Shown here: in pieces, positions 27,309 through 44,339 of the stretch
Position numbering within the stretch: the stretch's first letter is position 1
How the letters are laid out: every line of letters begins with the position of its first letter
Source of the DNA: a virus
Direction: 5' to 3' (one strand)
Virus record (IMG/VR): IMGVR_UViG_3300037452_000118
Location: 1 to 64,000 of that record
Length of the DNA stretch: 64,000 bases
Program-made: the position numbers and the translations under genes
The notes under the pieces: model-generated
The model's database searches: none
The model's input: only the letters and a program-made list of their open reading frames with translations
Told to the model about the DNA's origin: nothing

Positions 27309-27874
27309 GCTGTCTCCTAGCGCCGAAAAACGCTAGTGAATGGCAATAAGGTGCCTCCTATGAAGGCTGGAGGCGGGACTGCCAGGATCGGCCCCGGATC
27401 AAGGACCAACAGGGGCACCTAATTTGTTCCGCGACGTATAGGAGGGATCATGACCCCGCAAGTCGAGATCGCTTTGGCTGCTCCAGTATTCGATCCAGAG
27501 CGCCAGATCACTACCAAGTTTTTCTGGTATCCTGAGCGCCTGATCAGCGCCGGGCTGACCTGCAACATCGGGATGGAATGAAGCCGCTATGCCGGAGGCA
27601 GGCCGCTTTGGCAGCTCAGCCTTTCCTACCACGATCCCGAGACAGGTAGGCCGGTGCCGGTGCTCCGTTGGAGCCCAACGAAATGGCGGAAGGCGGAAGA
27701 ATTGAGAGATCGCATCATGCGCGGCGTCGGCACGGACGAGGAATGGGTAACCGAGGAAATGTCGGCGCAATTTGGAATGAGAGCTTACGCCGTTCACTAT
27801 CGGCGCCCGCTGCGCATCGACGAAATCGCGCGGATGGCGCCGACTACTGAAGTCAGAGAGAGGCCTGGAAGACC

Positions 27875-29680: not shown

Positions 29681-29681
29681 A

Positions 29682-30668
29682 ATGCTTCTCGTGAAAACAA
29701 AAGCGGCACCAAGCGCGATTCACGGCACGGGGCTGTTTGCCGACGAGCCCATAAAGCGTGGCGCGATCGTCTGGCGCTTCGACGACAGCACGGAAGAATC
29801 GTTCAGCCCCGAGGAAGCGGAAGCGCTGCCGGAACCGAAACGCACGAGGGTTCTGAGCCTCGTGCACTCGTACATCAGCAACCCGGACGGGCGGTTTATC
29901 CTGAGCAAGGACGACGCGATCTACTTCAACCACTCGTTCGCCCCGAACGTCGTGGAGACCGGCGACGGCCGGTGCGCGGCCCTGCGCGACATCCCCCGCG
30001 GCGAGGAGTTGACCATCGACTACAGGGACTATGCCGAGGACAATCCCCTGAACTTCGAGGTGGCAATGAGCGACGAACTAAGATTCGATCCTTCGCGCTT
30101 CCGCTTGGACGCCGACGCCCGTTCGCTGTCCTATTGCAGCCTCGACGCCACGGTCGGCGTAGACGACAGGCTGGTCGACACGCTGGTCGCGGAGTCAGAG
30201 CGCCGCGGCGGCGTCAACGCGCGGGTCTGCCTGCACACGTCGCCGGAATCCAACTTCCACGAGATGGTCATCCTGGAGCGCCGGGGCTACTACTTCCCGC
30301 CGCACCGGCACACCAACAAGGCGCAGTCCTGCAACATCCTGCGCGGCGAGGCGGCCGTGTTCGTCTTCGACGACGCCGGCAACGTGAAGCGCACCTGCGT
30401 CCTGGGGCGCGACGGCAACCTGATCTTCAGGATCGGCGAGGAGCGCTACCACCTCACGCTGCCGCTGACGGACTTCATCGTCTACCACGAGGGCAAGCCC
30501 GGCCCGTTCGAGCGCGAGGGCGACAGCATCTACGCGGAGTGGGCGCCGAAGCGCGAGGACAAGGAGGCGGTCGCGAAGTATCTGGACCATCTCCGCCATT
30601 TCGTCGAGCCGCGCGTCGTGAAGGGGCCGATCATCGGCGACCCGCAAGAGCCGCCAGACGTGCCGTGA
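29682..30668 (+). CDS. SET-domain protein fused in frame to a WbuC-like cupin
   Basis: HGTGLFA, YFNHSFAPN, GEELTIDY (SET); RVCLH, HEMVI, PHRH, HEGKPGPF (cupin). Confidence 0.72.
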   Translation: MLLVKTKAAPSAIHGTGLFADEPIKRGAIVWRFDDSTEESFSPEEAEALPEPKRTRVLSLVHSYISNPDGRFILSKDDAIYFNHSFAPNVVETGDGRCAALRDIPRGEELTIDYRDYAEDNPLNFEVAMSDELRFDPSRFRLDADARSLSYCSLDATVGVDDRLVDTLVAESERRGGVNARVCLHTSPESNFHEMVILERRGYYFPPHRHTNKAQSCNILRGEAAVFVFDDAGNVKRTCVLGRDGNLIFRIGEERYHLTLPLTDFIVYHEGKPGPFEREGDSIYAEWAPKREDKEAVAKYLDHLRHFVEPRVVKGPIIGDPQEPPDVP

Positions 30669-31666
30669 TGATGCGGCCGACCGTCGTCAAGATCGCCGCC
30701 TGGGGCGACCGCCATATTGAGTCGCTGCACCAGAACATCCTGCCTTGCCTGCTGGCGCCGCGGAACCTGCCGGCGCTGTGCGCGGCGTCGGAGACGGAGC
30801 TGATCCTCTACACCGACAGGCCGGCCAATATCGACCCTGAGATCCCGGGTTTGACGGTGACCGTCCGCGTGCTGGCGCCGCTGCCGGACGCCGGCGACCT
30901 GCCGGCGAACCGCAGGGTGCTGGCGCGGACCGACGCGGAGAGCGCCCGGCTCGCCGCGGCGAGGGACGCCGACTGGTTCGGCCTCCAGGCCGACACCTTG
31001 ATCAGCGACGCCTTTCTGCCCAGGGTCAAGGACCTGCTCGTCGCGTACCTCGCCGTGGCCGGGAGCCCGATCAGGACGGACGCCGACGCCCTGCGGGCGG
31101 CCGCCGGCGCGCGCCGCGCCTTCGACGCCGCCGACCTGCGCCGCCTCTCGATGGCCTGCCTGCACCCGGTGACGGCGGGCTACTTCGTCCGCGACCCGCC
31201 GGCCACGATCCCGGCCGACCCGCACCAGCTGCTGTTCCGCACCGCCAGCGGCTTCGCGGCGCGGACCTGGCAGTTTTGCCCGTTCGGCATCAGCCCCGAG
31301 GGTTTGCGGCCGATGATGACGTCCGACGAGGATTCGGAGCAGCCGATCGACGACGAGTCGACCATCGACTGCTACCTCGTCCAGAACCTGCCGTCGGCGC
31401 GGGTACGCTTCCACCGCCCGGCGACGGACGACTTCTACCTGACCAGCCTCGACGATCCGTCCGGCATCCCGAGGTTCGGCGAGTTCGAGATGTCGGCGGC
31501 CGGCGTCGCGGGCTCGATCCGCAAGTTCTCGCGGGACTACGGTGATGTCATCAACTACGGCGTCGCGCTTCGGCAGCGGTTCGCCTACCCGACGGAGGTC
31601 GCGCTGCCGGACAGCCTCGGCGAGGAGGAGACGCTGGAAGCGGTACGCAAGGCGCTGACGCCGTAA
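30668..31666 (+). CDS. Hypothetical protein, possible glycosyltransferase-like (paralog 1)
   Basis: N-terminal IAAWGDRHI..PCLLAPRNL..LYTD, shared with 32132 and 37724. Confidence 0.45.
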   Translation: MMRPTVVKIAAWGDRHIESLHQNILPCLLAPRNLPALCAASETELILYTDRPANIDPEIPGLTVTVRVLAPLPDAGDLPANRRVLARTDAESARLAAARDADWFGLQADTLISDAFLPRVKDLLVAYLAVAGSPIRTDADALRAAAGARRAFDAADLRRLSMACLHPVTAGYFVRDPPATIPADPHQLLFRTASGFAARTWQFCPFGISPEGLRPMMTSDEDSEQPIDDESTIDCYLVQNLPSARVRFHRPATDDFYLTSLDDPSGIPRFGEFEMSAAGVAGSIRKFSRDYGDVINYGVALRQRFAYPTEVALPDSLGEEETLEAVRKALTP

Positions 31667-32131
31667 AATTCGGTGTGGACGGCGGCCGTCAAAGAATGGA
31701 TAATTATACCTTCAGAAAGTTGTCACGGAAGCCAGCCCGCGCCCGCCAACTTCATAGGAGAGAACGATGTTCGTTGAGACTAAAAAGGACGGTGAGGCCC
31801 TACCGGTAACTCCGTCGGCGAAGGATGTTCTGGTCGCCGCCCGCGCAAAAATCGCCGAACCCGAAAATTGGTGTCAGGGCTGTCAAGGATTGGACAAGGA
31901 TGGCTGCGGCGTCAATCCGCTCGATTCCGACGCCGTGAAGCATTGTGCGCTCGGTGCGCTTTCTGCGGTCATCGGCAGCTACGTTCTTCCAACCCATCCA
32001 GCCCGCGTCGTTCTGCAACGCTGTGTCCCCGGTCCGATTGGCCCTTGGAATAATCGCCACTCACATACCGAAGTCGTCGCGGCCTTCGACGCTGCAATCG
32101 CGTGCATAAGCGGCCAAGCCCAAGGGGCAAC

Positions 32132-33052
32132 ATGAGATTCCGCTTCACCCTCGTGGTCTGGGGCGATTGGCACATCGGCCAGTTCGTCAGGCACGGCCTG
32201 CCCAGCCTGCGGGCGCCGGGCAACCTCGACGCGATCGACCACGTCGTTTCCGCGAAGACACGGCCGTCGGACCTGGAGCGCGTGCGCGCGGCGCTGGACG
32301 GCGTCAACGCCGAGATCGAAGCGCTGCTTCCCGACGACATCGGCTCCGACCAGGCGACCTGCAACACGGCGGTCTTCACGCACAACGTCGACGACCGATC
32401 CGCCGCCGCCCAGGCCGGGGAGGCCTGGGGACTGCTGTCGCCCGACATGGTGTGGGGCGAGGGAACGTGGGCGCACCACCGCGCCGCGCTGGAGGGCGGC
32501 GCGAAGGCGGTCTTCCGCCCGCTGCTGCGCGTCGACTCCGAACGCGCCGGGACGATCCGCGATTTCCGCAGACGCAGCCTCGCCGCGACCGCCTTGGAGC
32601 ACGAGCACGCGATCGCGCGGACGGACTACCGCGCCGGCGGGGAGAGGTTCTCGCCGCACGCCGAGATGATTATCTGGGAGGCGCCGGGTTGGCTGATCAA
32701 CCGGACCATCACCGCTGAAGTCCAGACCTGCATCCCGGCTGCGGTGCCGTTCAACTCGCAGGGTTTGTCGGCGCTGCCGCTGGACGGCGAGATGTGCGTG
32801 GTCCGCGACAGCGACGAGGCGATCGCGGTGGCGATGTGCCCGCCGGACAAGGACTTCGGCTGGCTGCAGGGGACGCGACCGCTCGATGTCGACCTTGTCC
32901 GCGGTTTCCTGCGGTCCTACAACTCGCCGGCATCGAGGAACATCGCGCGCCAATCCTACCACCTGCATGCGGGCGACATCGTCGATGCCGAGATATGGAA
33001 AACGGTATTAGATCGTAGATCAGACGATTTCATCACGGAGGTCTTCGCGTGA
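32132..33052 (+). CDS. Hypothetical protein, possible glycosyltransferase-like (paralog 2)
   Basis: LVVWGDWHI..PSLRAPGNL. Confidence 0.45.
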   Translation: MRFRFTLVVWGDWHIGQFVRHGLPSLRAPGNLDAIDHVVSAKTRPSDLERVRAALDGVNAEIEALLPDDIGSDQATCNTAVFTHNVDDRSAAAQAGEAWGLLSPDMVWGEGTWAHHRAALEGGAKAVFRPLLRVDSERAGTIRDFRRRSLAATALEHEHAIARTDYRAGGERFSPHAEMIIWEAPGWLINRTITAEVQTCIPAAVPFNSQGLSALPLDGEMCVVRDSDEAIAVAMCPPDKDFGWLQGTRPLDVDLVRGFLRSYNSPASRNIARQSYHLHAGDIVDAEIWKTVLDRRSDDFITEVFA

Positions 33053-34167
33053 ACCTGCACCTCGCGTCAGACCTGCTCCTGGACAAGCATCTTCCGGAGC
33101 CGGAGCCTGTCCCCGACAAGGCGGCCTACCTCCGCGAGCGCGAGGCCTGCCTGGCGCTGTCGCCGGCGGCGCGCGAGAACTGGGAGCGCTACGAGCGCTC
33201 GACGAGGCGCGAGGCGGAGCTGGACTACCTGCCGGTCCGGCTCGACGTCGAGAACGTCAGCCGCTGCAATTTTCGTTGCACCATGTGCCAGGTCAGCGAC
33301 TGGCCGAAGGGCCAGCGCGCCGCCGACATGAGCCTCGACGACTTCAAGCGGCTGCTCGACGAGCAGGTCGGAGTCGTAGAGCTGAAAATCCAGGGCTTCG
33401 GCGAGCCGACGATGGGCGCCCACTATTTTGAAATGATCCAATACGCGAGGGCGCGGCGGATATGGGTGCGCACCATCACCAACGCCTCGCGGCTGCATTT
33501 GAGAAACACGTTTCAAAAGTTGGTCGATACCGACGTGAACGAAATCCAAATATCAATAGACGGCGCAACGAAGGAAGTCTTCGAGGGCATCCGGCGCGGC
33601 TCGGTGTTCGAGCAGGTCGTGAAGAATTGCGCGCTGATCAATGGCTATGCAAAAGCCCAGGGCAAGCTACGAACCAAAATGTGGACTGTCGTGCAACAAA
33701 CCAACGCGCACCAGCTCGACGACCTGGTCGACCTCGCCTACGACGCCGGCTTTGCGCATTTGGTTTTTTCATTTGAATTGATTGATTTTGGGCAGCCGAA
33801 ATGGAAGGAGACGAACGATGCCGCCTCGGTCGCGGATCGGATAAGCCTCGCGGAATGTTGGCGGCTGCACCATCGCGCCAAGGCGCTCGGCGTCCGATTG
33901 GGTTTTTGGTTTGCCAACGAACGCTATAGCTATGAGGCGGGCAACCCGGAAAAGCTATGCTCGTGGCCGTTTCAGTCTGCCTACATCTCGTCCGACATGA
34001 AAATCGTACCGTGCTGTATAATTGGAAACCCCGAAGTTAGCAATTTCGGCGATGCCCGCAAGCTCACTGAACTTTGGAATGGCCCCGCCATCAAGGCTTT
34101 CCGTGAGGGTCATTTGACGGGGTGTGTTCCGGATATTTGCAGGTCCTGTTATAAGGGGAATCGCTGA
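33049..34167 (+). CDS. Radical SAM enzyme with SPASM/twitch domain
   Basis: CNFRCTMC, GFGEP, ISIDG, CSWPF, VPCC, CRSC. Confidence 0.9.
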   Translation: MNLHLASDLLLDKHLPEPEPVPDKAAYLREREACLALSPAARENWERYERSTRREAELDYLPVRLDVENVSRCNFRCTMCQVSDWPKGQRAADMSLDDFKRLLDEQVGVVELKIQGFGEPTMGAHYFEMIQYARARRIWVRTITNASRLHLRNTFQKLVDTDVNEIQISIDGATKEVFEGIRRGSVFEQVVKNCALINGYAKAQGKLRTKMWTVVQQTNAHQLDDLVDLAYDAGFAHLVFSFELIDFGQPKWKETNDAASVADRISLAECWRLHHRAKALGVRLGFWFANERYSYEAGNPEKLCSWPFQSAYISSDMKIVPCCIIGNPEVSNFGDARKLTELWNGPAIKAFREGHLTGCVPDICRSCYKGNR

Positions 34168-34177
34168 ATCAACTCTA

Positions 34178-34207
34178 TTGACTTATAATTATCGCGTGGT
34201 GTAGGAA
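34178..34207 (+). promoter_or_regulatory. Candidate sigma70-type promoter for the RAMP cassette
   Basis: TTGACT at 34178 and TATAAT at 34184 in an AT-rich gap; the -10 assignment is ambiguous. Confidence 0.35.
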
Positions 34208-34215
34208 TGGTTCCT

Positions 34216-34368
34216 ATGAGAACCACGCACAAGCAGACGATTACCTTCACGAAACCAGAGATCGACTACCTGCGGATCGAGGCTAAACGCCTCGGCATAT
34301 CCGTGGCCGATCTTGTGCGGCGGATCATAGATCAGCACCAAGAGAGCCAAAGGAAAGCAGCAAAATGA
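34216..34368 (+). CDS. Ribbon-helix-helix (CopG-like) protein, 50 aa, not in the ORF track
   Basis: Manual translation MRTTHKQTITFTKPEIDYLRIEAKRLGISVADLVRRIIDQHQESQRKAAK; stop overlaps the next start (ATGA). Confidence 0.75.
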   Translation: MRTTHKQTITFTKPEIDYLRIEAKRLGISVADLVRRIIDQHQESQRKAAK

Positions 34369-35177
34369 ACAAACCAATCCAAGCCGAAGAGGCCGTTACC
34401 GTTGCCGAGATACAGATGACCGAGATGAGCTTCAACATCGTCGGGACATCCCCTCTCGTGATCCATGCTATGAGCGCGAAGAGCAAAGGCTCTCTGCTCT
34501 TTCCATCTCCGCGCAAGAATGCGACGGAGCGAGCGACGACGATGAAGCACGAACCATATGAGGAGTTTCTCGGCGCTTGCTATCGCTTCAGGGACGCCGA
34601 CAAATCGCCGACCCGGCTCTATATGCCGGCCGGAGCTTTTCATGCCGCGATGGCCAACTCCGCGATTGATATGGTCGGCGCTAAGAAAGCGCAGATCGGG
34701 CGCTTGACTACGGTACCCGGCGGCAAGATTCCAATCTTCGGTGTGCCGCAACTCTGGATGACCACCGTCAGGTCGAGCGACATGGCGCGAACACCGGACA
34801 TTCGCACGCTGCCGATCCTGCCGTCATGGTGCGCCACGATCACGGTGCAGTTCGTCGGTAGCCTGATCAAGCAGCAGTCGATCGCCAATCTGCTCGCTGC
34901 CGCTGGCGTCATCATTGGTATCGGTGACGGGCGCCCAGAGAAGGGCAAATTGTCGATGGGCCAGTTTCGCCTTTGCTCCGACGATGATCTAGAGTTTTTG
35001 CGGATCGTGAAGCAAGGCGTAACCGCGCAGGATAAGGCGCTTGCCGACCCGGCGACTTTCGACGAGGAAACTGCAGAACTTTGGGATTGGTTCACAAAAG
35101 AAAAAACCAAACGGGCGGCGGCTCCGGCGTCAATACCGAAGCGCCCCCCCCAAGGCAGAGCATGCAGCGCGAGCTAA
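34365..35177 (+). CDS. Stand-alone RAMP/Cas7-like RNA-binding protein (Vipr-like effector)
   Basis: N-terminal strand FNIVGTSPLVIHA, LYMPAGAFHAAM helix, C-terminal Gly-rich loop AGVIIGIGDGRPEKGKLSMGQF; directly followed by a 5-nt-periodic array. Confidence 0.72.
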   Translation: MNKPIQAEEAVTVAEIQMTEMSFNIVGTSPLVIHAMSAKSKGSLLFPSPRKNATERATTMKHEPYEEFLGACYRFRDADKSPTRLYMPAGAFHAAMANSAIDMVGAKKAQIGRLTTVPGGKIPIFGVPQLWMTTVRSSDMARTPDIRTLPILPSWCATITVQFVGSLIKQQSIANLLAAAGVIIGIGDGRPEKGKLSMGQFRLCSDDDLEFLRIVKQGVTAQDKALADPATFDEETAELWDWFTKEKTKRAAAPASIPKRPPQGRACSAS

Positions 35178-35185
35178 CGGCTCTT

Positions 35186-36059
35186 GAAATCCAGTCCAGT
35201 TGGGACACGATAGCCCAGTCATATCTCGATGTGACGAGATACGACTAGATGCGACCGGGACCAACAAGACTTGATCGGTCAAGATGCGAACAGTCTTGAT
35301 GCGACGGGACCGGATATGATCCGATGAGCCGTGACTGGACCAACGCGACTAGACCGGACGCGACGCGATACGATCTGGCTAGATACGATGAGACCAATGC
35401 GATGCGTTTGGCCGAGTTCGGACGCGACATGATCCGCCGTGATGCGCTTTGCCAAGACGCGACCAACATGATGAGCCGTGACCAGCCACGATCAGACCCG
35501 ACGGGCCGGAGCGCGACTTGCTCAGACCAACAAGACCTGCCGAGCCGCGATCGGCCGCGCTGCGATACGATTGGACAGGACGTGTTTTGTCCAACATGAC
35601 CCGACTAGCGATGACGAGCGGTGCCGGGCCATGACGAGACCAACAAGCCAAGTCTGGACGTGCTCGGACGGAATATGATCGGACTGGACAAGACCAACAC
35701 GACAAGACTGGAGACGACGTGCGGAGCCGGGACCGGCCGCGACAACGCTGGACCTGACCAACGGGCCTAGAAGGGACCGGATTAGCAATGCCGTGGCGAG
35801 ACGGGACCGACAAGTCACGATCAGCCAAGTCCCGAGGAGCCAACGCGAGATCGGACATGCCAAGACCAACGAGGTTTGCTCAGATGAGCGAAGCCGCGAC
35901 GTGATCGGCCAAGACGTGACCAACGTGACTGGCTATGCCGAGATTGGCCCGGACCAGATGCCTTGGGACGAGACTTGAAATGCCGAGACCAACGAGCCGC
36001 GATGTGACCTGACGCGCTATGCCGCGATCAGTAGCGATGAGATGGGATAAGTTGCCAAC
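35186..36059 (+). ncRNA. Array of ~14 putative guide units, each n x (NN-GHY) + CAAC (VIPR-like RNA array)
   Basis: Twelve clean units between 35266 and 35993 have lengths 79,54,69,64,64,49,54,64,49,59,54,69 (all 5n+4); by hand count 131/136 triplets begin with G and 78/136 are GAY; first and last units are degenerate. Confidence 0.85.
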
Positions 36060-36076
36060 CAAAGAGGAGGTTAAAA

Positions 36077-36571
36077 ATGTCGACCATGAAAATCCGCGCT
36101 GCGGCGATCAAAGCGATCGAGGATGAAGCCGGCAGAGTGACGGCGGAAGCGCTGGTATTGGCGGCGCGCGATCAAACCCATCCGCTGCACAAGGAGTTTC
36201 CCTGGGACGACAAAAAGGCGGCGCACCAGCATCGCCTCGATGTCGCCCGCCGTATAATCGCCAGCGTAAGGGTAACCATCACAACTACAACCAAGAAGGT
36301 AACCTGCGTTGGCTATGTCAGGGATCCTGAAGCCGGGCTACGACAGGGCTACGTCAGCACCGTCAAGCTGCGTACTGAGGCCGATGCTGCGCGGGAAGCC
36401 CTCGGCGCGGAGATCGCCAGGGTACAGAGCATTTTGGAAAGAGCGAAGGAACTCGCTGCAGGCCTCGAGCTTGACGAGGATTTTCAATTGTCTCTCGCCG
36501 GCGCCTTGGATTTTTCCAGCCGGATGCGAAAAGGACTCGGTTTTCCAGGAGATGGAAGAGCCTTGCAATAA
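36077..36571 (+). CDS. Accessory protein of the RAMP cassette (phage hypothetical protein)
   Basis: Strong GAGGAGG RBS; HPLHKEFPWDDKKAAHQHRLDVARRII motif; lies between the two arrays. Confidence 0.7.
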   Translation: MSTMKIRAAAIKAIEDEAGRVTAEALVLAARDQTHPLHKEFPWDDKKAAHQHRLDVARRIIASVRVTITTTTKKVTCVGYVRDPEAGLRQGYVSTVKLRTEADAAREALGAEIARVQSILERAKELAAGLELDEDFQLSLAGALDFSSRMRKGLGFPGDGRALQ

Positions 36572-36580
36572 AGCCTAAAC

Positions 36581-36709
36581 GTACTGTGCCGTGTCACGTT
36601 ACGACATGATCGGACACGATCTGACGAGACCAACGCGACCTGACTCGTCTTGTTGCGGTGAGGCATGACATGATGCGATTTGTCGCGATCCGACTAGCCG
36701 CAGCAAGAT
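36581..36709 (+). ncRNA. Second short NN-GHY array (2 units)
   Basis: Unit 36581-36634 (10 pentamers + CAAC), then 14-15 pentamers from 36635. Confidence 0.78.
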
Positions 36710-36725
36710 GATCAAAGGGAAGCTA

Positions 36726-37727
36726 ATGATACTCTCTGTCGGGGAATACGATGCCCTTGAGCAGGAAGCTCGCTGCGGTCTTTCTTTTTGCGAGCTCATG
36801 GCCTTCGCGCCGCGCACTTTCGACATGCTCGGCTTCCCGCATCGCGTCGAGGATGAGCGGGAGCTCGTCCGCTACGCCGATTGGAATCGGGACACCGGAA
36901 ATCAAGAATACTTTCGGCCCGGCCATTTCTTCGGCGGCCCGGCCGTGCAGACCGACTTCACCGCCGATGAGGTCGAGATGATGAATCGCGTCCGCGACCA
37001 GGCCGTCGCGGCGACCACCAAGCTCGGCCGGCCGGTGCGGCCGCTGTGCAGTCCCTTCGCGCAGCTCGGCCTGTTTCGCATCTTGGCCGCCATCGGATTG
37101 CCTGGGCTCCGCGTCTTCGAGGTCGGCCCCGGTACCGCCTATCTCGGCGCCATGCTCATCAACGAAGGCGCGAGCTATTATTCTTTCACCGACAACGCCC
37201 AGGCGCTTTTCCTTTGGCAATGTCGCTTGATGGCCGAGGTCGGGTATCAACCGACGTCGCGCGCTGGGCTTCCGTGGTGGGACTTCGCCCGCGGCGTCAA
37301 CCTTCTTCCGGTCGATGTCGTGGTCTCCAACACCAACCTCGGCGAGATGACCGGCGACGCGCTCAAGATCACGGCGCACCGCGCGCGGCAGATGCTGGAG
37401 AGATCGCCGCTTGGTCTCTTCCTGTTCGTCAACGTCGGGGCGCCGATGTACAATTCGGAGGAGGGCGTCGACCGCGAGCTGCGCCGTGCCGGCTTCAGCC
37501 TCGTCGTCAACCGCTTTTTCCGCGCCTACCGGGCGCCCAACTCCGAGCCGCTCCCGGAGGCGGCGCTGGCCTTGGAGTTCGGCATGCCGCTCTATAATCC
37601 AAGCGGCAGGCCTGGCACGGTGTCCGGTGGCGAGGCCGTGTACATCCCCGACGACCAGCGCCCGCTCGACCTCGACGTTACGGAGCTGCTGGAGGGGTGG
37701 CGCCCGCCGGTGAGGAGCAAGCCATGA
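36726..37727 (+). CDS. SAM-dependent methyltransferase, putative sugar O-methyltransferase
   Basis: VFEVGPGTAYLG, DVVVSNTNLGEM; sugar-cluster context. Confidence 0.65.
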   Translation: MILSVGEYDALEQEARCGLSFCELMAFAPRTFDMLGFPHRVEDERELVRYADWNRDTGNQEYFRPGHFFGGPAVQTDFTADEVEMMNRVRDQAVAATTKLGRPVRPLCSPFAQLGLFRILAAIGLPGLRVFEVGPGTAYLGAMLINEGASYYSFTDNAQALFLWQCRLMAEVGYQPTSRAGLPWWDFARGVNLLPVDVVVSNTNLGEMTGDALKITAHRARQMLERSPLGLFLFVNVGAPMYNSEEGVDRELRRAGFSLVVNRFFRAYRAPNSEPLPEAALALEFGMPLYNPSGRPGTVSGGEAVYIPDDQRPLDLDVTELLEGWRPPVRSKP

Positions 37728-38647
37728 AGATCGAGGTCGTCGTCGCGGCGTGGGGACACTGGGCGCAGCGCTGGCGCAACCTCAACTGCGCCGTCGTGCG
37801 GGCCGAGGCCGACGACGTCGGCGGCACCTTGGTCGTCTACGCCGACGACGACGGCCGCGAGCGGCTGGCGGGGGAATGGATCGACGAGTTCAGGCCGCTG
37901 CCGGAGCCGGTGAGCTGGTTCGACCAGGCCGACGGCGCGCACGCCGACGCGATCGACCGGGCCCTGGCCGGCGGCTACGCCGTGGCGCCGCTGTGCGCGT
38001 CGCTCCGCCTCGGCAGGGGGACGCTCGCCGCCGCCAAGCGCCGGCTCGACGCCGGCTACCGGGCCTGCATGGCGCTCTGCGTCCCGGCCGGGGTGCCCGA
38101 CAAGGTCGAGACCGCCGCGGCGATGTCGGCCAAGCTCAAGCACGCCGGGTTCGGCTGGTGGGAGGGCAGGACGAGGACGACCCACCCCGGCCACTATGCC
38201 TGGCGCTCGGCCAACGGCGCCGTCCTGGTGCGGCCGATCTACCACCACCCCGTCCTCATCAGGCCGACGCGCGCCCACGCTCCGCGCCGCGCCGCCGACC
38301 ACTTCATGACCGAGGGCTACCTCGACGACGTCTCGCAGGTCGCGCAGCTCGACCCCCTCGACGGCTGCATCAGCGGCCTGCCGGCCCACGACGGCACCGG
38401 CCCTCCGCCGGGCCCGGCCAGGCCCCCGGAGAACCCGGCGCTGGCGGAGCCCGCCGGCATCGTGGGCTGGATGCTGTCCGGGGTCGGCGTCGCCGGCGGC
38501 GTCAACGTGATGCCCTGGAACCTGCACTACATGGCCCACCGCTTCTGGTGTGGCGAGCCCGGCGCCGACAGGCTAGAAGTTGAGATGGAATCGGACCGCG
38601 CCGTCGCCGAGATCAGGCGGATTTATTTTGAAAGGGTAGGAAAGTGA
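37724..38647 (+). CDS. Hypothetical protein, possible glycosyltransferase-like (paralog 3)
   Basis: VVVAAWGHWA..LVVYADD. Confidence 0.4.
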   Translation: MKIEVVVAAWGHWAQRWRNLNCAVVRAEADDVGGTLVVYADDDGRERLAGEWIDEFRPLPEPVSWFDQADGAHADAIDRALAGGYAVAPLCASLRLGRGTLAAAKRRLDAGYRACMALCVPAGVPDKVETAAAMSAKLKHAGFGWWEGRTRTTHPGHYAWRSANGAVLVRPIYHHPVLIRPTRAHAPRRAADHFMTEGYLDDVSQVAQLDPLDGCISGLPAHDGTGPPPGPARPPENPALAEPAGIVGWMLSGVGVAGGVNVMPWNLHYMAHRFWCGEPGADRLEVEMESDRAVAEIRRIYFERVGK

Positions 38648-38823
38648 ACTTAGCGGAGCGGAGGCGGGGAAAGCAGACCCGCACGGACTGGACACAGGTA
38701 CGCAGGGAATTAGGGGCGCAAGCTCCGTGAATTGCGACGCACCTCAGCGGGTTCGATTCCCGACGGTCATCAACGAAATAGCGATGAAGCTGGAGTAGCG
38801 CCCAGCCCGCTCCGCTAAGTTCA
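38645..38823 (+). ncRNA. Putative multi-branched structured RNA with tRNA-like arms
   Basis: Perfect 17-bp terminal inverted repeat (38645-38661 / 38807-38823) enclosing several hairpins, including CGGG-TTCGATT-CCCG. Confidence 0.5.
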
Positions 38824-39948
38824 TACGAGCTAAAGCCGCAAAGGAGGATCAAATGCCCAAGTGTCGTTTCTGCGGTGCGGACATGATCTTCCGAGATTTT
38901 GGTCCGTACTACCCGCTCTACGATGTTCCCGGCGCGAGCGTCGGCTATTGGGAATGTCTCAATTTCAACGATGGTCGCCACGGCGATCCGCGACAGAGAC
39001 AGGACCGTTATCAGACGAACGACAAAACCCTCGTGCCAAAGGAGAAATATCATGCCGCTTAAAGACCCGCGCGAATCCCTCGTTGAACGCCGCGCGCTAC
39101 TAAAATTTTTCGGGATTGCCGTCCCCGCCGCGCTTCTACCGACCGTTGCCGAAGAAAGCGAGCGGCCTTCTGGCCCGCAATTCTTTATGAGGCCGGACGA
39201 AATCTTCACATTGTTCGTGAGCGAAATGGTAGCCGCGCTGCCCCAGCAATATGCCGATGCGGCGCGTGATCGTAGTTCGGTATTGCGAACGATGATCGAG
39301 GCACACGGCGTCGCGATGGCAACCGTTTTAGCAACGTTCCAGATGCCGCCGCAGGATATTGCCATCGGGAAAACGTTGACGGACTTCGGAATAATGTGGG
39401 ATGTCGTCCGCTTAGATGGCGAATCCGACAATGATTTGCGGACTCGGCTGGCAGATCGAATGAAAGGCACCGCGAGACGATCATGAAAATGATGAAAACT
39501 ATTTCGGTCCCGGCGACAACGCGCGAAGCGCTTGATTACATCAAATGCGAGCTTTGCCCTACGCAAACACGCTCCGATGGCTATTGGCCTACGAACATAG
39601 GCTACAGAGTTGATGACGTTGAGGTTGAGTACGTCACGGGGGACAGCTACCCGGAAGGTGGCTCTACAAAAACCGTCATTCTCGACATCTGCCCCAAATG
39701 CTTCGAAGAAAAGTTGGTCCCGTGGTTTAGGTCTCAAGGTGGTGTACCTCGTGTGGAAGAAAGGGACTGACGATATGCCGGACGTTCCCAAAGTCCTCGA
39801 CACCATTGCCGACCGGGTCCTCCGATACCGGCCCAAGCCGAAGTCAAAGCCCGCTCGCCGCCGTAAGCGCCGGGCTGCCAAGCTGGCGTCAAAATGAGCG
39901 GAAGAATCAGAAGCGGGTTGATCTATATGCAGCATTGGAGATGATATA

Positions 39949-40917
39949 ATGCAGTGGTGTTGGAATTGTTTTTCGCATAATCCTACGGGCATCCGCTCTC
40001 TCGAGGACATCATCGAGATCGTCTCCGGCCAGCTCATCGCGCTGGGCCACACCGCGGCGTGGGACCGGACCAACGAGCACATGGTCGCGCGGGACGCCGG
40101 CATCAACATCCTCGTCGAGGGCTTCACGGAGCACCACGTCGGCATCGTCAAGCAGATGCACGAGGCCGGCGCGCGCTTCATCGTCCTCGCCACCGAGGAG
40201 CCGACCGACAAGGGCTTCAACCACGGCACGCAGAAGGAGATGGTGGAGAGGCAGCAGGTGTTCCCGCTGATCGCCCCGTACATCGAGGGCATCATCCACC
40301 TCGTCCCCGGCGACCACGTCACGCGCTGGTACTCGCAGTTCGCGCCGTCGGCCTACACCGAGCTAGGCTGGTCGCCGAAGATCATGCGGCAGAACGCGCC
40401 GATCGTCGTGAAGAACAAGGACGGCTCGCAGCGCGTCATCCCGGAGCCGGACTACGAGTTCGGCTTCTACGGCTCGCTGACCGATCGGCGGCACAAGCTG
40501 CTGAAGAAGCTGGCCAAGAGGGTCACCAACAACCCGAAGGCCATCGTGACGATGGTCGACTTCGGCACCCGGGGCAACCGCGACAACGAGATGCGCCGCG
40601 CCAAGGTCATCGTGCAGCTCCGCAAGTTCGACGAGATGGGGCTGGTGTCGTCGAGCCGCTGCAACACCGCGCTGGCCATCGGGCGGCCGGTGATCGCGGA
40701 GCCGCACGAATTGGCGAAACCGTGGGACGAAGTGATCCGCTTCTCGAAGACGCAGGAGTCCTTCATCGACGAGGCGATGGCGATGCGCGCGATGTGGCGC
40801 GGCGTCTACCAGCACCAGGTGGCCAAGTTCAAGGAGAAGTTCCCGCCGGAGGCCTGCATCGGTCGCGCGCTGGAGATCCTCGGCATCGGGCAGGAGCCGC
40901 GGAGGCTGGCGTCGTGA
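39949..40917 (+). CDS. Putative GT-B-type glycosyltransferase
   Basis: FGFYGSLTDRR, RAKVIVQL, SRCNTALAIGRPVIAE resemble the C-terminal domain of CgeB-like GTs. Confidence 0.5.
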   Translation: MQWCWNCFSHNPTGIRSLEDIIEIVSGQLIALGHTAAWDRTNEHMVARDAGINILVEGFTEHHVGIVKQMHEAGARFIVLATEEPTDKGFNHGTQKEMVERQQVFPLIAPYIEGIIHLVPGDHVTRWYSQFAPSAYTELGWSPKIMRQNAPIVVKNKDGSQRVIPEPDYEFGFYGSLTDRRHKLLKKLAKRVTNNPKAIVTMVDFGTRGNRDNEMRRAKVIVQLRKFDEMGLVSSSRCNTALAIGRPVIAEPHELAKPWDEVIRFSKTQESFIDEAMAMRAMWRGVYQHQVAKFKEKFPPEACIGRALEILGIGQEPRRLAS

Positions 40918-42090
40918 GAAAGCGCGCGCTTGCTTCTGCATAGTCGAGAGAAAACTATGATCGATCTTGAGAGCGACGATATTCCAGAGGGCTACTTTGA
41001 GTGCGAAGATGGCGATTATTGCGACCATGAAGAATATGAAATTGACGTGTGCACCGGCCGCGCCGCATGCCAGGTTTGCGGAGCCCGATGGTGGGCAACA
41101 AAAGAACAAGTCGATGCGGAGTTAGATCGCATCGCTGACTATACGAAATGGACTGATCAAGAAAATCGCCGCGAGCGTTGGCGCGAAGTTCTTTATTGGT
41201 TATGGTGGCCGTTGCGCCAGTTACGCCGCTTTTGGCCCGAACGGCATGACGATGAAATCCCGTTCTAAGGCCGGTTAACTGAGGTCTAGCATCCCGATGC
41301 CGAGGCCGCCTAAACGCGACAAAGCCTTCAAGACTGAGGTTGAATTATGCGGTGCATTTTTGGCCGCTGTTGATAATACTCAATGGACCGCATTCGCGGA
41401 AACGGCGAATTGGGACATACTTTTAGTCCGCAAGATCGACGGCTTCCAGATCGGCATCCAGGCGAAGCTGAAGCTCAACGTCGACGTTGTAAACCAGGTG
41501 ATCGAGGGCGACGATGGCTGGTTCAACACCGCCCACGCCCACCCCGACTGCTGCGCGATCCTCGTCCCCGAGGGCGACGACGGCAAGCTCGGGAAAGTGT
41601 GCGACTGCCTCGGCATCACGGTGATCAGGATGCGGTCGGCGAGCGCGGAGGGCTGGCGCGAGAGCGACTTCAAGCACAACGCCCGCTTCACGCCTGACCT
41701 GCCGCAGCCGGGGAAGTCTTGGAGTCAGGAAGCCTGGCACGACCTCGCCACGGTGAAGCGGCACAAGCTGCCGGAATACGTGCCGGACGTCGCGGCCGGC
41801 GCGCCCTCCCCGCTCCAGCTCACCGACTGGAAGATCAAGGCGATCAAGCTCGCCGTCACGCTGGAAATGAGAAAGCATCTCACCCGCCGCGACTTCGCCC
41901 ACCACGGCGTCGACCACCGCCGCTGGGTAACGCAGGGCTGGCTGAAGGTAGTCGACGGCCGCTACGTCAAGGACGCCTTCCCGAACTTCAAGAAAATGCA
42001 CCCGGTCAATTACAAGCAAATCAAAAAGGACGCGCCGAAATGGCTGCCGAAGACTCTGCTGGAGCCGGTGGCAACCCAGGCGGCGATGCT

Positions 42091-42930
42091 GTGAGCCTGA
42101 TCCGGGTTTTCCCCAGGCGCACGCGGGCGACGCCCGACGATGCCCTCGCGCGCTTCGGGCCGCCCGACCTCCTCGATGAGGCCGACGAGGTGCACGTCTC
42201 GGTCACCTTTACCTACGACAAGGCCAAGGCGGAGCAGCTCGCGGAGCAATGGCGCCACGTCGCGCCGGTCAAGATCGGCGGCGTGGCCTACGGCGACACC
42301 AGCCTGGAGTTCATCCCCGGCCGCTATCTGAGGCCCGGCTACACGATCACCTCGCGCGGCTGCCCGCGCCGCTGCTGGTTCTGCAGCGTCCCAAAGAAGT
42401 GGCCGACCGTGAACCTGCTTCCGATCTACGACGGCTGGAACGTCCTCGACGACAACCTGCTGGCCTGCGACCGCGGCCACTTCGAGAGCGTCATCGCCAT
42501 GCTCCGGCGCCAGAAACTGCCGGAGAACGGCCGCGTCGAGTTCAGCGGCGGGCTCGAGGCGCTGTCGCTGCAGGACTGGCACGTCGACATGCTGGCCAGC
42601 CTGAAGCCGCGCCCGAACTGCTTCTTCGCCTACGACCCCGGCGACGCCTTCGAGACGCTGGAGAGCGCCGCGCGCCGGATGCTCGCCGCTGGCTTCACGG
42701 CGGCGTCGCACCGGCTGCGGACCTTCGTCCTCGTCGGCTATCCCAAGGACACGCTGGCGCTCGCCGAGGCGAGGCTGCGGCAGATGACTTCCATCGGCTT
42801 TACCCCGTTCGCGATGCTGTGGAGGCCGGAGACGCCATCGCAGCAGAGATATGCGCCCGGACCGGAGTGGAAGCGGTTCCAAAAAATGTGGGCGCGACCG
42901 GCTATCATTCACGCCCAGGCGGCGGCATAG
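42091..42930 (+). CDS. Phage radical SAM protein
   Basis: TSRGCPRRCWFCSVP, LDDNLLA. Confidence 0.8.
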   Translation: MSLIRVFPRRTRATPDDALARFGPPDLLDEADEVHVSVTFTYDKAKAEQLAEQWRHVAPVKIGGVAYGDTSLEFIPGRYLRPGYTITSRGCPRRCWFCSVPKKWPTVNLLPIYDGWNVLDDNLLACDRGHFESVIAMLRRQKLPENGRVEFSGGLEALSLQDWHVDMLASLKPRPNCFFAYDPGDAFETLESAARRMLAAGFTAASHRLRTFVLVGYPKDTLALAEARLRQMTSIGFTPFAMLWRPETPSQQRYAPGPEWKRFQKMWARPAIIHAQAAA

Positions 42931-44339
42931 TGGGCGAATCCAGTTTTCAAGAGAGCGCCGATGAGCAACCGCAAGGGCCGATGCTTCCGATCACAGCGCC
43001 GCCTGAAGAGGCGCAAGGCGCGGCAGGACAAGGTTCAGCGGCGCATCGATCTTATGGCGCTCGCCGTCGAGGTCGGGGCGGTGCTGTCGCTGGTGGAGGC
43101 GATGAGGTTCTCCAATGAAAGCCTCACCGCGATGACTCGAGGGCGGCGGTCGCGCCTCCGGGATTTTTACCCGCCGCTCAACGTGACCGCCGCCATGATG
43201 AAGGCACGGCAAGCAGGAATAGGATTGCGGATATGACCAACGAGCAGCACGCTTGGCTTCAGGCTCACCCCGACTACACGATGATCGGCCAGGTCGGCGG
43301 CGGCATGCGCTACGTCAGGCGCGGCACGCTGAGGAAGGACGGCACCTTCGTCCCGGTCACCCGGTCCGCCCCGCTGGTCGACACCCGCGACGGCGGCTTC
43401 GGGGTCGGCGTCAAGGAGGTCGGCAGGATGGGCGCCGATCCCCGCACCGACTTCGGCCCGCGGTCGGCGGGGCGCTGAACGTGGGATTGCTCGTGCGCTG
43501 CACGGACGAGGCGGCGCCCTTCCCGCGCCCGGTAATCCTCGAGCTGGCCTGCGACGGCGCCGCGCACGGCATGTTCCCCGACCATCAAACCTTCGCCGAT
43601 CCTGACGGCTTCATCGCGCAGCACTCCGCCGCGATCGCGTCGGGATGGACCGAGCGCCAAGGCCCGCAGGGCAGGACATGGATCGGCCGCTGCTGCACCG
43701 GAAAAGGAGCGCGCGATGTTCCGGTTTGAATGGCCGCCGCAGTTGCTCTATCGTCTCCGGCGCCACCACCGTCGAGTCGCGATCGTCGTCGACGGCCGCA
43801 TCCACGAGCTCAACCCCCACCGGAGGACGCACCTCATGCTCCCAGTCACCGCCGGCCACGCCGTCGCCCTCGCCATCGCCTACCTCGACGCCAACGGCCA
43901 CAAGATGCTGACGCAGCCGACCCCGGACGGCCCGCCGTCCTGGACAGACGCCCCGAGCGCCCCCGGCATCGACACGCTGACCGTCGCCCCCGACGGGTCG
44001 AGCGCCATCCTGGCCACCAACCCCGCCGACGCCGACGGCTCCGACACCGTCGGCCTGTCCGTAACCGTCGGCGGCAAGACGTTCTCCGCGACGCTCGCCG
44101 TCGCGATCTCCGCCGCACCACAAGTCTTGAGCAGCGTGGAAATCGTCGGCACCGTCCAATAATCCCGTTGCAACGAATCGTCGCCCCGTGCGACAAACGT
44201 CGCCGGTGCGAGAGAACTCCTCGAAACCGTTGGAAGTCCCCGCCGCCGGCAGCACCCCCTGCCGGCGGTTTGCTTTTGCGGATGGCATGCGGCTAAGATA
44301 GCCAATGCCGCAAAAAAATAGCCATTGGACCTGATCAAG

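What the first reader, a model, noticed from the sequence alone, without database searches (positions are those of the whole stretch)
36635..36818. Last guide decodes to the 5' end of the gene just downstream: both flanks are targeted, as in homing
Seen: unit from 36635 gives GC CT TC TT GC GA AT AT GC TT GC CC TA GC. Codon positions 1-2 at 36777-36818 give GG CT TC TT TG GA CT AT GC TT GC CC CG AC. That is 21/28 nt with 9 full dinucleotides (guide A-L-S-F-A-E-I-M-A-F-A-P-Y-A versus gene G-L-S-F-C-E-L-M-A-F-A-P-R-T). With the upstream match, each flank is recognised within ~120 nt of the cassette edge, and both flank segments look richer in A/T-ending codons than the distal gene parts. Inference: the cassette acts as an RNA-guided selfish element, attacking empty-site alleles of co-infecting relatives and spreading with its resistant flanks, like a free-standing homing endonuclease.
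Basis: partly seen in the sequence, partly recalled or inferred. Interest (0 to 1): 0.9.

Follow-up and report, generated by a model that had tools for sequence, protein, structure and literature searches.

The report
VIPR guides aimed at sibling flanks
A soil phage carries a VIPR cassette (a CRISPR-like RNA-guided DNA binder first described in 2026) in which three guide RNAs spell the two neighbouring genes as cassette-free sibling phages carry them, not the phage's own altered copies, so weapon and immunity sit side by side.

Summary
The last array unit (36635-36704) matches codon positions 1-2 of the downstream gene at 36777-36818 in 21 of 28 letters. That is the best match in the whole 128.8-kb genome, and 2 of 10,000 guide shuffles reach it in the flanks. 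The first full unit likewise matches the 3' end of the upstream radical-SAM gene (22/30).

The system itself is already in print. It is a VIPR locus (Vipr RAMP protein, vap, pentanucleotide vrRNAs read with a one-base skip), and GAC/NN arrays have also been reported (bioRxiv 2026).

What I did not find in print is the aim of the guides. In syntenic relatives where the two genes abut with no cassette (L081, L083), three guides match better than in this genome: 24/28, 24/30 and 15-16/18, against 21/28, 22/30 and 12/18. The phage's own alleles rank among the worst matches in their families.

Both flanking genes change GC3 and nearest relative near the cassette, which fits the cassette having arrived together with its flanks.

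No nuclease was found, so "homing" remains an analogy. Linked sibling exclusion is the better-supported reading.

Notes from this scan report the same pattern in at least 12 other genomes; I did not check them.

The parts
33049..34167 (+). Upstream flanking gene: radical SAM / SPASM enzyme (372 aa). GC3 drops from 0.89 to 0.67 at about 33469.
   Evidence: Pfam Radical_SAM 1.1e-15 and SPASM 1e-8. GC3 shift. The nearest relative changes between the N-terminal and C-terminal parts.
33979..34004 (-). This genome's version of the U00 target site (guide reads the minus strand, wobble-registered). Own match is only 12/18.
   Evidence: The homologous site matches 16/18 in L083 and 15/18 in L081 and L082. 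0 of 10,000 shuffles reach 15/18 in L081 +-400 nt.
34096..34139 (+). This genome's version of the U01 target site (codons AFREGHLTGCVPDIC). Own match is 22/30.
   Evidence: Relatives match 24/30 (L081, L083) and 26/30 (L082). The own allele fits the guide at 8/15 residues, lower than 107 of 119 homologues.
34207..34368 (+). Small 53-aa ORF at the cassette's left end, possibly a ribbon-helix-helix regulator.
   Evidence: Only weak Pfam hits below cut-off (NikA-like, E = 0.0034). The function is inferred.
34365..35177 (+). vipr gene: 270-aa RAMP/Cas7-like protein (P0001).
   Evidence: AlphaFold model pLDDT 82.8. Foldseek top hits are Cmr4/Csm3/gRAMP, with 21 chains at E<=1e-3. The family profile hits PDB 36pp_D 'SUSP1 Vipr protein' at E = 2.1e-4, the only hit at E<=1. 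phrog_4652.
35211..36053 (+). vrRNA array 1: 14 units (U00-U13) of 9-15 pentads [NN + G-(A/C/T)-Y]. Most are separated by a 4-nt CAAC that shifts the phase by one.
   Evidence: In 179 pentads, G is 96% at scaffold position 1, position 2 is A 61 / C 23 / T 10 / G 5 %, and position 3 is C or T in 94%.
36077..36571 (+). vap-like accessory gene (164 aa, P0002), helical, no recognisable nuclease.
   Evidence: phrog_15946. A homologue is found by tblastn (E <= 1e-3) in 77 of the 81 loci searched, the window's own locus included. 4,677 representative homologues. Model pLDDT 89.9 with no PDB match at E<=1e-3.
36586..36704 (+). vrRNA array 2: unit U13b (36586-36630, no target found) and unit U14 (36635-36704), the guide named in the finding.
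36777..36818 (+). This genome's version of the U14 target site (codons GLSFCELMAFAPRT). Own match is 21/28.
   Evidence: L081 and L083 match 24/28, with the 11 central dinucleotides perfect. The own allele differs from the common GLSFAEIMAFAPRT at two central residues.
36708..37727 (+). Downstream flanking gene (339-aa ORF; the public gene call is 333 aa, from the ATG at 36726). The 'methyltransferase' label is unverified. GC3 rises from 0.70 to 0.85 after about 36887.
   Evidence: No Pfam or PHROG family. 55 homologues. GC3. The nearest relative changes after about residue 54.

Best explanation
The 2.56-kb insert between the radical-SAM gene and the next gene is a VIPR system. It comprises a Vipr RAMP protein, a vap-like partner, a small possible regulator, and 16 guide units built of NN + G-H-Y pentads.

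By the published mechanism, Vipr protomers coat the RNA, hide each scaffold triplet and present the NN pairs. These pairs bind double-stranded DNA while skipping every third base, which is the codon wobble position. That mechanism is inferred here from family membership and was not tested.

Three guides are aimed at the cassette's own neighbourhood as it exists in sibling phages that lack the cassette: U00 and U01 at the start of array 1, and U14 at the very end. Two of their sites lie in the last 190 nt of the radical-SAM gene, one on each strand. The third lies 52-93 nt into the downstream gene. In those siblings the two genes abut or overlap (TGA-G-ATG or TGATG).

The carrier's own copies have non-synonymous changes at the read positions and fall below the 80% match that the VIPR papers use to call a target.

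Most likely use: during mixed infection the complex binds and silences or obstructs the sibling's operon. The escape alleles sit within 200 bp of the cassette, so recombination rarely separates weapon from immunity. Cassette and flanks are therefore inherited, and spread by ordinary homologous recombination, as one unit.

Shown: the matches, their significance, the better fit to empty-site relatives, the mosaic flanks and the family membership. Inferred: expression, binding, silencing, the benefit, and how the cassette spreads.
For: 1. VIPR membership.
- RAMP fold.
- The family profile hits the solved SUSP1 Vipr at E = 2.1e-4 across the G-loop, with SUSP1 D177 aligned to the invariant D188.
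- 5-nt arrays lie next to vipr homologues in all 12 loci listed. One search found units chained to vipr or vap in 63 of the 81 loci.
- A vap homologue was found (tblastn E <= 1e-3) in 77 of the 81 loci searched, the window's own locus included.
- Only period 3 gives the signal.
- The NN composition (position 1 G 41%, position 2 A 30% and G 19%) looks like sense codon positions 1-2. That comparison with codon-position usage is recalled general knowledge; I did not compute it for this genome.

2. Flank aim.
- In the whole genome only U01 and U14 exceed chance, and both hits are in frame within 120 nt of the cassette.

3. Siblings.
- L081 is syntenic. Its upstream and downstream 316-aa neighbours are 52% and 79% identical to this phage's.
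- In L081 and L083 the two flanking genes abut.
- In L081 +-400 nt, U00, U01 and U14 each beat all 10,000 shuffles. The other 13 units are reached by at least 1,168 of 10,000.

4. Own alleles fit the guides worse than relatives' alleles do.
- U01: 8/15 residues, below 107 of 119 homologues.
- U14: 16 of the 25 closest homologues fit better.
- U00: 17 of the 25 closest fit better.

5. Mosaic flanks.
- GC3 shifts in both genes, while L081 (0.90-0.97) and L082 (about 0.62) are uniform along the same gene.
- In the radical-SAM gene the nearest relative changes from P0182 (94% in the N part, 71% in the C part) to P0180/P0181 (83% and 80% in the C part).
- In the downstream gene it changes from P0131/P0135/P0140 (83-85% in the first 54 aa) to P0125 (86% in the rest).

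6. Published precedent for self-match being lower than non-self match in vrRNAs that target relatives.
Against: - No relative with a perfect match was found. The best are 26/30, 24/28 and 16/18, and the end dinucleotides of U14 mismatch every allele seen.
- Only three relatives supply DNA, and L081-L083 are 64-69% identical in the downstream protein, so they are distant siblings.
- VIPR's tolerance of mismatches is unknown. The words 'mismatch', 'seed' and 'tolerat' do not occur in the structure preprint. Self-binding at 73-75% therefore cannot be excluded.
- GC3 of the flanks (0.58-0.70) is ordinary for this genome (ORF median 0.67). It is the distal parts of the gene cluster that are unusually GC3-rich, so the direction of transfer is open.
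- A protein 95% identical to Vipr (P0004) appears to lie on a 104-kb contig whose radical-SAM and downstream genes are only 80% and 64% identical. I infer the shared contig only from equal contig lengths. That contig's radical-SAM allele would fit U01 well (12/15). I could not fetch the contig.
- Enrichment across other loci is weak.
- No expression data exist.
Confidence: 0.68

Rival explanations
1. True RNA-guided homing. Binding at the three sites that bracket the empty site leads to a break or a stalled fork in the sibling genome. This could happen through an unrecognised nuclease activity of Vap or a host factor, or through the R-loop/triplex acting as a roadblock. Repair then copies the cassette and its escape flanks into the sibling.
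For: - The targets bracket the insertion point, at -190..-163, -72..-28 and +52..+93 nt in L081, and use both strands.
- Apparent exchange tracts of about 700 bp on the left and about 180 bp on the right resemble co-conversion tracts.
- The Vipr protein is 95% identical to one on a contig whose flanking genes appear far more diverged (shared contig inferred).
- The published text says types III-V VIPR carry predicted nucleases.
Against: - No nuclease family or fold was found in any of the three cassette proteins.
- The characterised systems silence rather than cut.
- Mosaic flanks also arise from ordinary phage recombination.
- No contig in four laid soil runs showed both the empty and the filled form of one strain (an absence of cover, not evidence).
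Confidence: 0.18
2. Self-regulation. The imperfect matches are tolerated, and the complex binds the phage's own flanks to time or insulate transcription of the radical-SAM gene, the cassette and the downstream operon.
For: The own-genome matches are far above chance (1 and 2 of 10,000 shuffles). They lie on the sense strand at the operon junction. Mismatch tolerance of VIPR is not documented in the texts I read.
Against: - Relatives match better at all three sites, and the own alleles rank at the bottom of their families.
- Own matches are 67-75%, below the 80% used for natural targets. The authors found no self-targets at or above 80%.
- Disturbing NN pairing abolished silencing in the published reporter assays.
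Confidence: 0.07
3. The targets are not sibling phages but homologous biosynthetic genes of the bacterial host or of other elements. The position next to the phage's own copies would then only reflect where the cassette happened to land.
For: Radical-SAM/SPASM homologues only 54-59% identical to this phage's protein (P0297, P0250, P0247, P0218, P0213) fit U01 at 12/15 residues, as well as any close homologue. Other rows in the same identity range carry bacterial names, for example P0217 and P0251.
Against: - Three guides converge on one 280-nt junction that exists as such only where the two genes abut.
- The best U14 fits (11/14) are all among the closer homologues, 59-81% identical.
- L081 is syntenic with the phage and carries a phage-type HNH homing-endonuclease gene (phrog_314, E = 4e-19).
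- Two hits landing within 120 nt of the cassette in a 128.8-kb genome is not expected by chance.
Confidence: 0.07

Closest known systems
VIPR systems (Vipr + vrRNA + vap); experimental exemplars are the type II systems of Escherichia phage SUSP1 and a Pseudomonas fulva prophage (bioRxiv 10.64898/2026.04.26.720920 and 10.64898/2026.04.26.720927)
   Same: A RAMP protein whose family profile hits SUSP1 Vipr. Units of 9-15 pentanucleotide repeats with two variable bases. One-base-skip matches aligned to codon wobble positions, on either strand. An adjacent small accessory gene. A phage carrier. Own-genome matches below 80%.
   Different: - The scaffold is G-(A/C/T)-Y, with G the rarest second base (5%), rather than GGY.
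- The Trp that stacks on the second G in SUSP1 (W178) aligns to an invariant Gly.
- Units follow one another with a 4-nt CAAC and no separate 3' tail.
- There is an extra small ORF.
- The identifiable targets are the cassette's own neighbouring genes in cassette-free relatives, not a satellite or a resident prophage.
- Which of the seven published types this is I could not tell, because the figures and supplements were not available to me.
Non-canonical VIPR arrays such as GAC/NN (bioRxiv 10.64898/2026.10.21.760802; passages read)
   Same: A GAC/NN pentad array next to a Vipr-like fold.
   Different: The passages I read report the motif and the protein fold only. They give no targets and nothing about flanks.
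Solo vrRNAs of VIPR-null SUSP1-like phages that target relatives' vipr genes and vrRNAs (bioRxiv 10.64898/2026.10.15.759431; sections 8, 9, 17 and 26 read)
   Same: Guides sit at a locus and aim at the alternative form of that same locus in related phages. Self-match is lower than non-self match. Targets are wobble-aligned.
   Different: There the cassette-less form attacks the cassette. Here the cassette-bearing form is aimed at the flanking housekeeping or biosynthetic genes of the cassette-less form, and escape substitutions are linked in cis.
Free-standing homing endonucleases of T-even phages (seg and mob genes) and their marker exclusion (recalled knowledge, no call)
   Same: A target in the neighbouring gene of the element-free relative, close to the insertion point. 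The carrier is protected by polymorphisms. Flanking markers travel with the element.
   Different: Recognition would be by RNA, not protein. No nuclease was found, and no conversion has been shown.
TnpB/IscB guide RNAs of IS200/IS605 elements (abstract of PMC10705468 seen in the listing)
   Same: A mobile element encodes a guide that recognises the element-free site and so favours its own retention or spread.
   Different: Those are nucleases with contiguous guides that read the joined empty site. Here the guides are gapped, non-cutting as far as known, and read sites inside the flanking genes.

Membership tests
VIPR system | Vipr protein: a minimal RAMP (RRM core, G-loop, thumb) related to the solved Vipr | tested here: met
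   The model (pLDDT 82.8) matches Cmr4/Csm3/gRAMP chains, 21 at E<=1e-3. The profile of 30 family members hits 'SUSP1 Vipr protein' 36pp_D at E = 2.1e-4, the only hit at E<=1. The G-loop GDxRP aligns, with D177 aligned to the invariant D188. The H17 to H34 pairing rests on a non-significant stretch.
VIPR system | vrRNA: tandem pentanucleotide repeats with a conserved triplet and hypervariable NN, 9-16 per guide | tested here: met
   16 units of 9-15 pentads. Scaffold G 96% / A-C-T-G 61-23-10-5% / Y 94%. This is a dialect (GAY/GCC) rather than GGY. GAC/NN is reported in print.
VIPR system | Targets follow the one-base-skip rule, with the skip on the codon wobble position | tested here: met
   Period 3 gives 22 and 21. 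Periods 2, 4 and 6 give 17-19. All three target sites are in codon register, including the minus-strand one.
VIPR system | Adjacent vap accessory gene | tested here: met
   A P0002 homologue was found (tblastn E <= 1e-3) in 77 of the 81 loci searched, the window's own locus included. Which published vap class it belongs to is unknown; its fold has no PDB match.
VIPR system | vrRNAs are expressed, processed and bound by Vipr; the complex binds dsDNA and silences | not testable with these tools
   No RNA run is listed for this DNA. Needs small-RNA sequencing and reporter assays.
Homing endonuclease-type selfish element | Encodes a site-specific DNA endonuclease | tested here: not met
   No nuclease family in Pfam, PHROGs or PADLOC for the three cassette proteins. 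The Vipr fold is RAMP. Vap has no structural match. An unrecognised activity cannot be excluded.
Homing endonuclease-type selfish element | Recognition site lies in the element-free allele close to the insertion point, and the carrier allele is resistant | tested here: met
   In silico only. Three guide sites lie within 190 nt of the empty junction in L081 and L083, with 83-89% NN match there against 67-75% in the carrier.
Homing endonuclease-type selfish element | Flanking markers are co-converted with the element | tested here: inconclusive
   GC3 and nearest-relative shifts at about 700 bp on the left and about 180 bp on the right fit this. They fit ordinary phage mosaicism as well.
Homing endonuclease-type selfish element | Super-Mendelian transmission in mixed infection | not testable with these tools
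   The phage is uncultured; the runs that hold it are recorded as soil metagenome.

The most novel reading that the evidence does not exclude
VIPR cassettes of this kind are nuclease-free RNA-guided gene drives. Guide complexes clamp both sides of the empty site in a co-infecting sibling. The R-loop/triplex roadblocks stall transcription and replication there. Recombinational repair then copies the cassette into the sibling together with its escape-coded flanks. This would be homing achieved by binding alone, and a route by which RNA-guided systems spread before they acquired nucleases.
Probability: 0.18. Interest if true: 0.85.

Novelty: new variant of a known kind. Interest (0 to 1): 0.55.

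Why it matters
The VIPR preprints present these systems as weapons against satellites, resident prophages and rivals' VIPR loci. This locus shows guides aimed at the cassette's own insertion neighbourhood in cassette-free siblings, with the escape alleles linked in cis and signs that cassette and flanks arrived together.

If this is general, VIPR cassettes are selfish "weapon plus immunity" modules. That would help explain where they sit in phage genomes, why flanking genes near them are mosaic, and how RNA-guided systems could spread between phages.

It is directly testable with the published reporter assay, by comparing sibling and own target sequences. It also gives a rule for predicting targets of uncultured VIPR loci: look first at the neighbours' alleles in relatives.

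Tried and rejected
I therefore could not fetch the 104-kb contig that carries the 95%-identical Vipr, or the contigs of the other close Vipr relatives (P0005-P0015).

Searches for relatives and targets that found nothing useful
- The search for related loci with the downstream protein alone in viral contigs: 0 relatives.
- With its alignment: 1 distant locus in viral contigs and 13 distant loci in genomes, at most 40% identical. None was useful.
- Exact gapped pattern of the 11 central dinucleotides of U14 in viral contigs: 0 matches.
- Central part of unit U04 (the unit another note reads as a JAB motif): 0 matches.
- tblastn of Vipr and of the downstream protein against 50,697 deposited phage genomes: no match.

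Protein function
- Foldseek of the Vap model against PDB: best E = 2.1, nothing usable.
- PADLOC: only a weak PbeC hit for Vap (E = 0.002), which I disregard.

Surveys of other loci
- The first survey (621 units, 40 shuffles each) gave about as many "hits" as chance would.
- The second mis-set cassette borders because of spurious pentad runs inside genes, and it even missed this window's own hits.
- Only the third survey is used.
- In L016 and L025 the last guides near-match the adjacent terminase gene at 16/20 and 15/20. Scores of 15-16/20 also occur at unrelated places among the 118 loci, so these are suggestive only.

Sequencing runs
- No RNA holder is listed.
- Laying four soil runs showed identical fragments of this phage, including a contig across the right cassette junction (X4, 36638-36918), and diverged relatives of the flanks.
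- No contig joined the two flanking genes directly.
- One low-support joint (35211 to 36617, depth 2, 23 letters on the shorter side) is too weak to use.
- Parts without cover prove nothing.

What I could not see
- Supplementary files and figures of the VIPR preprints were not available to me. Figures S17 and S18 and the data tables may already show this scaffold, this array type, or flank-directed guides.

Searches behind "not found in print"
- The paper search. In one search, 0 papers hold both 'vrRNA' and 'homing'.
- Term look-ups in the two biology preprints.
Full report
WHAT IS THERE

Between a radical-SAM/SPASM gene (33049-34167; Pfam) and a 339-aa ORF (36708-37727; no family) lies a 2.56-kb insert. 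It holds, in order:
- a 53-aa ORF;
- a 270-aa ORF (P0001);
- a non-coding array of about 840 nt;
- a 164-aa ORF (P0002);
- a second short array.

The arrays are strictly 5-periodic: two variable bases followed by G-N-Y. Over 179 pentads G is 96% at the first scaffold place. The second place is A 61 / C 23 / T 10 / G 5 %, and the third is C or T in 94%. A 4-nt CAAC after a GAC punctuates the array into units of 9-15 pentads and shifts the phase by one each time. The spacings are all 4 mod 5. I count 16 units, U00 to U14 plus U13b.

THE OBSERVATION

It agrees with codon positions 1-2 at 36777-36818 in 21 of 28 letters.

| Test | U14 (21/28) | U01 (22/30, at 34096-34139) |
|---|---|---|
| Next best score in the 64-kb window, both strands | 19 | 18 |
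| Shuffles reaching the score, window | 6 of 300 | 1 of 300 |
| Shuffles reaching the score, whole 128,813-bp genome | 4 of 100 | 0 of 100 |
| Shuffles reaching the score, two 800-nt flanks | 2 of 10,000 | 1 of 10,000 |

- Both hits are in frame, on the coding strand, and within 120 nt of the insert.
- With periods 2, 4 or 6 the best scores are 17-19.
- The other 14 units have only chance-level best matches in the genome.
- So two of 16 guides have near-self matches, and both lie at the edges of the insert.

WHAT THE SYSTEM IS

*Proteins.*
- P0001 has 606 homologues at E<=1e-3 among the 8,000 candidates scored, all unnamed.
- Its model (pLDDT 82.8) matches type III Cas7-family chains (Cmr4, Csm3, gRAMP), 21 of them at E<=1e-3.
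- A profile of 30 family members hits one PDB sequence at E<=1: "SUSP1 Vipr protein", 36pp_D, E = 2.1e-4.
- The match covers the G-loop. SUSP1 D177, which reads the first scaffold G, aligns with an invariant Asp (D188).
- SUSP1 W178, which stacks on the second G, aligns with an invariant Gly. This fits a scaffold whose second base is free and rarely G; that link is my inference.

*Loci.*
- All 12 viral loci listed carry pentad runs next to the gene. In one search, 63 of the 81 loci gave units chained to vipr or vap.
- A P0002 homologue was found by tblastn (E <= 1e-3) in 77 of the 81 loci searched, the window's own locus included.

*Literature.* The search found the system in print.
- bioRxiv 10.64898/2026.04.26.720920: I read the outline, all of Results, the Discussion, Methods sections 20 and 27, and term look-ups. 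It describes VIPR: a Vipr RAMP, vrRNAs of 9-16 YNNGG repeats, recognition of dsDNA with a one-base skip that falls on the wobble position, targets on either strand, and silencing of competing elements.
- The structure preprint ...720927: outline, section 5 and term look-ups.
- The competition preprint 10.64898/2026.10.15.759431: outline, sections 8, 9, 17 and 26, and term look-ups.
- A fourth preprint, 10.64898/2026.10.21.760802 (passages only), reports non-canonical arrays including GAC/NN beside Vipr-like folds.

The cassette, its decoding rule and even its scaffold dialect are therefore known.

WHAT THE THREE GUIDES AIM AT

I fetched relatives of the downstream gene from metagenomes. Three are close enough to compare as DNA.
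- In L081 and L083 the radical-SAM stop and the next gene's start abut or overlap (TGA-G-ATG and TGATG). These are empty sites.
- L081 is syntenic with the window. The upstream 316-aa neighbour is 52% identical and the downstream one 79%. Two genes further on it carries an ORF that hits a phage homing-endonuclease family.
- L082 has a different gene, an FkbM-type methyltransferase, at the same junction.

| Guide | This genome | L081 | L082 | L083 |
|---|---|---|---|---|
| U14 | 21/28 | 24/28 (11 central dinucleotides perfect) | 23/28 | 24/28 (11 central perfect) |
| U01 | 22/30 | 24/30 | 26/30 | 24/30 |
| U00 (partial unit before U01; minus strand of the radical-SAM gene, 92 nt upstream of the U01 site, wobble-registered) | 12/18 | 15/18 | 15/18 | 16/18 |

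In L081 +-400 nt, all three guides beat all 10,000 shuffles. The other 13 units are reached by at least 1,168 of 10,000. The relatives therefore pass the 80% match that the VIPR authors use for natural targets, and the carrier does not. Those authors found no self-hits at or above 80%, so a near-self signal of this kind would have fallen under their filter.

At protein level:
- The own radical-SAM allele fits U01 at 8 of 15 residues. That is lower than 107 of 119 homologues, equal to 11 and higher than 1.
- For U14, of the 25 closest homologues, 16 fit better, 6 equally and 3 worse.
- For U00, 17 fit better, 5 equally and 3 worse.
- The U14 site covers one of the most conserved stretches of the protein (invariant L19, S20, E23, F27, T31). 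The own allele differs from the common form at two central, less constrained residues.

SIGNS THAT CASSETTE AND FLANKS TRAVELLED TOGETHER

*GC3.*
- In the radical-SAM gene GC3 falls from 0.89 (first 140 codons) to 0.67 (last 232 codons; Fisher p = 9e-7).
- In the downstream gene it rises from 0.70 (first 60 codons) to 0.85 (p = 0.009).
- The cassette genes have 0.63-0.70.
- The same radical-SAM gene is uniform in L081 (0.90-0.97) and in L082 (about 0.62).

*Nearest relatives* change at about the same places.
- The radical-SAM N-terminal part is 94% identical to P0182, but the C-terminal part only 71%. P0180 and P0181 are the best for the C-terminal part, at 83% and 80%.
- The first 54 residues of the downstream protein are closest to P0131, P0135 and P0140 (83-85%). 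The rest is closest to P0125 (86%, against 66% for its first 54 residues).

*Caveats.*
- Flank GC3 is ordinary for this genome (ORF median 0.67). It is the distal cluster that is GC3-rich, so which side is "foreign" is open.
- Phage genes are often mosaic without any drive.

HOW GENERAL

In 63 loci with 361 non-redundant units, the two 800-nt zones outside each cassette gave 6 units at the shuffle floor (p <= 0.0025), against 0.9 expected. A control zone further out gave 1.
- Two of the six are this window's. The other four are in L016, L025, L038 and L054.
- Four of the six are the first or last called unit of their locus. The other two, this window's U01 and L038's unit, stand next to an end.
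- L016 and L025 sit directly upstream of a terminase large-subunit gene, and their last guides near-match it in frame. Scores of that size also occur by chance among 118 loci.
- I take this as modest support.

Notes of this scan report the same arrangement in at least 12 other genomes. I did not test those notes and do not count them as evidence.

MECHANISM AND RIVALS

The cassette shows no nuclease, and the characterised VIPRs bind and silence. The best-supported reading is therefore sibling exclusion with linked immunity.
- The complex binds a cassette-free sibling's junction at three sites on both strands and obstructs its operon.
- The carrier escapes through non-synonymous changes that lie within 200 bp of the cassette.
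- Recombination therefore rarely separates weapon from immunity.

The rivals, in order of weight:
- Active homing remains possible but unshown. It could work through a hidden nuclease, or through roadblock-induced recombination.
- Self-regulation is disfavoured, because relatives match better than self.
- Host genes as targets are disfavoured, because three guides converge on a junction that exists only where the two genes abut, and because of L081's synteny.

NOVELTY

The system is known. Among 2026 papers that mention vrRNA, none also holds "homing". Term look-ups in the two biology preprints found no flank-directed guides. The nearest published idea is that solo vrRNAs left at a deleted VIPR locus target relatives' vipr genes, with self-match lower than non-self match. 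Supplements and figures, which I could not see, may hold more.

I rate this a new variant of a known kind, of moderate interest.

Noticed in passing
window 34365-35177 (G-loop, residues about 185-191) and arrays 35211-36704: The Trp that stacks on the second scaffold G in SUSP1 Vipr aligns to an invariant Gly in this family (GDGRP against GDWRP). Here the second scaffold base is free, and G is its rarest state (5%). Other members of the same protein family use GGC (L009) or GGC/GTC (L012). The protein change may permit scaffold dialects.
   Followed up: partly
L082 2508-3386; L081 9582-10469: The radical-SAM / next-gene junction holds a different insert in L082: an FkbM-type methyltransferase gene of 292 aa. 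The syntenic L081 carries an ORF that hits a phage HNH homing-endonuclease family two genes further on. This gene cluster seems to attract insertions.
   Followed up: partly
window about 26000-43000: The cassette sits in a plus-strand glycan or modification cluster: UDP-galactopyranose mutase, a B12-binding radical-SAM enzyme, two further radical-SAM proteins and several unnamed 316-aa paralogue-like genes. Its GC3 (0.85-0.94) is well above the genome's ORF median (0.67). A weak terminase hit follows at 44880-46577.
   Followed up: partly
window 35338-36053 and 36586-36630: Thirteen units (U02-U13, U13b) have no target in this genome, in the 118 fetched loci (threshold 78%), or, for the one unit I tried (U04, central 10 dinucleotides), in IMG/VR. 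The NN composition of the array (position 1 G 41%, position 2 A 30%) looks like sense codon positions 1-2. That comparison is recalled general knowledge, not computed here, so coding targets elsewhere are a guess.
   Followed up: partly
L009 5838-6319: This relative's array uses a GGC scaffold and contains a long internal duplication, so a block of about 20 guide pentads occurs twice.
   Followed up: no
window 35211-36617 (run X4): One low-depth soil contig joins 35211 to 36617 with 16 other letters between, which would remove array 1 and vap. Support is too weak to call it a variant (depth 2, 23 letters on the shorter side).
   Followed up: no
window 48554-55777: A 2,407-aa open reading frame on the plus strand, not examined.
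   Followed up: no
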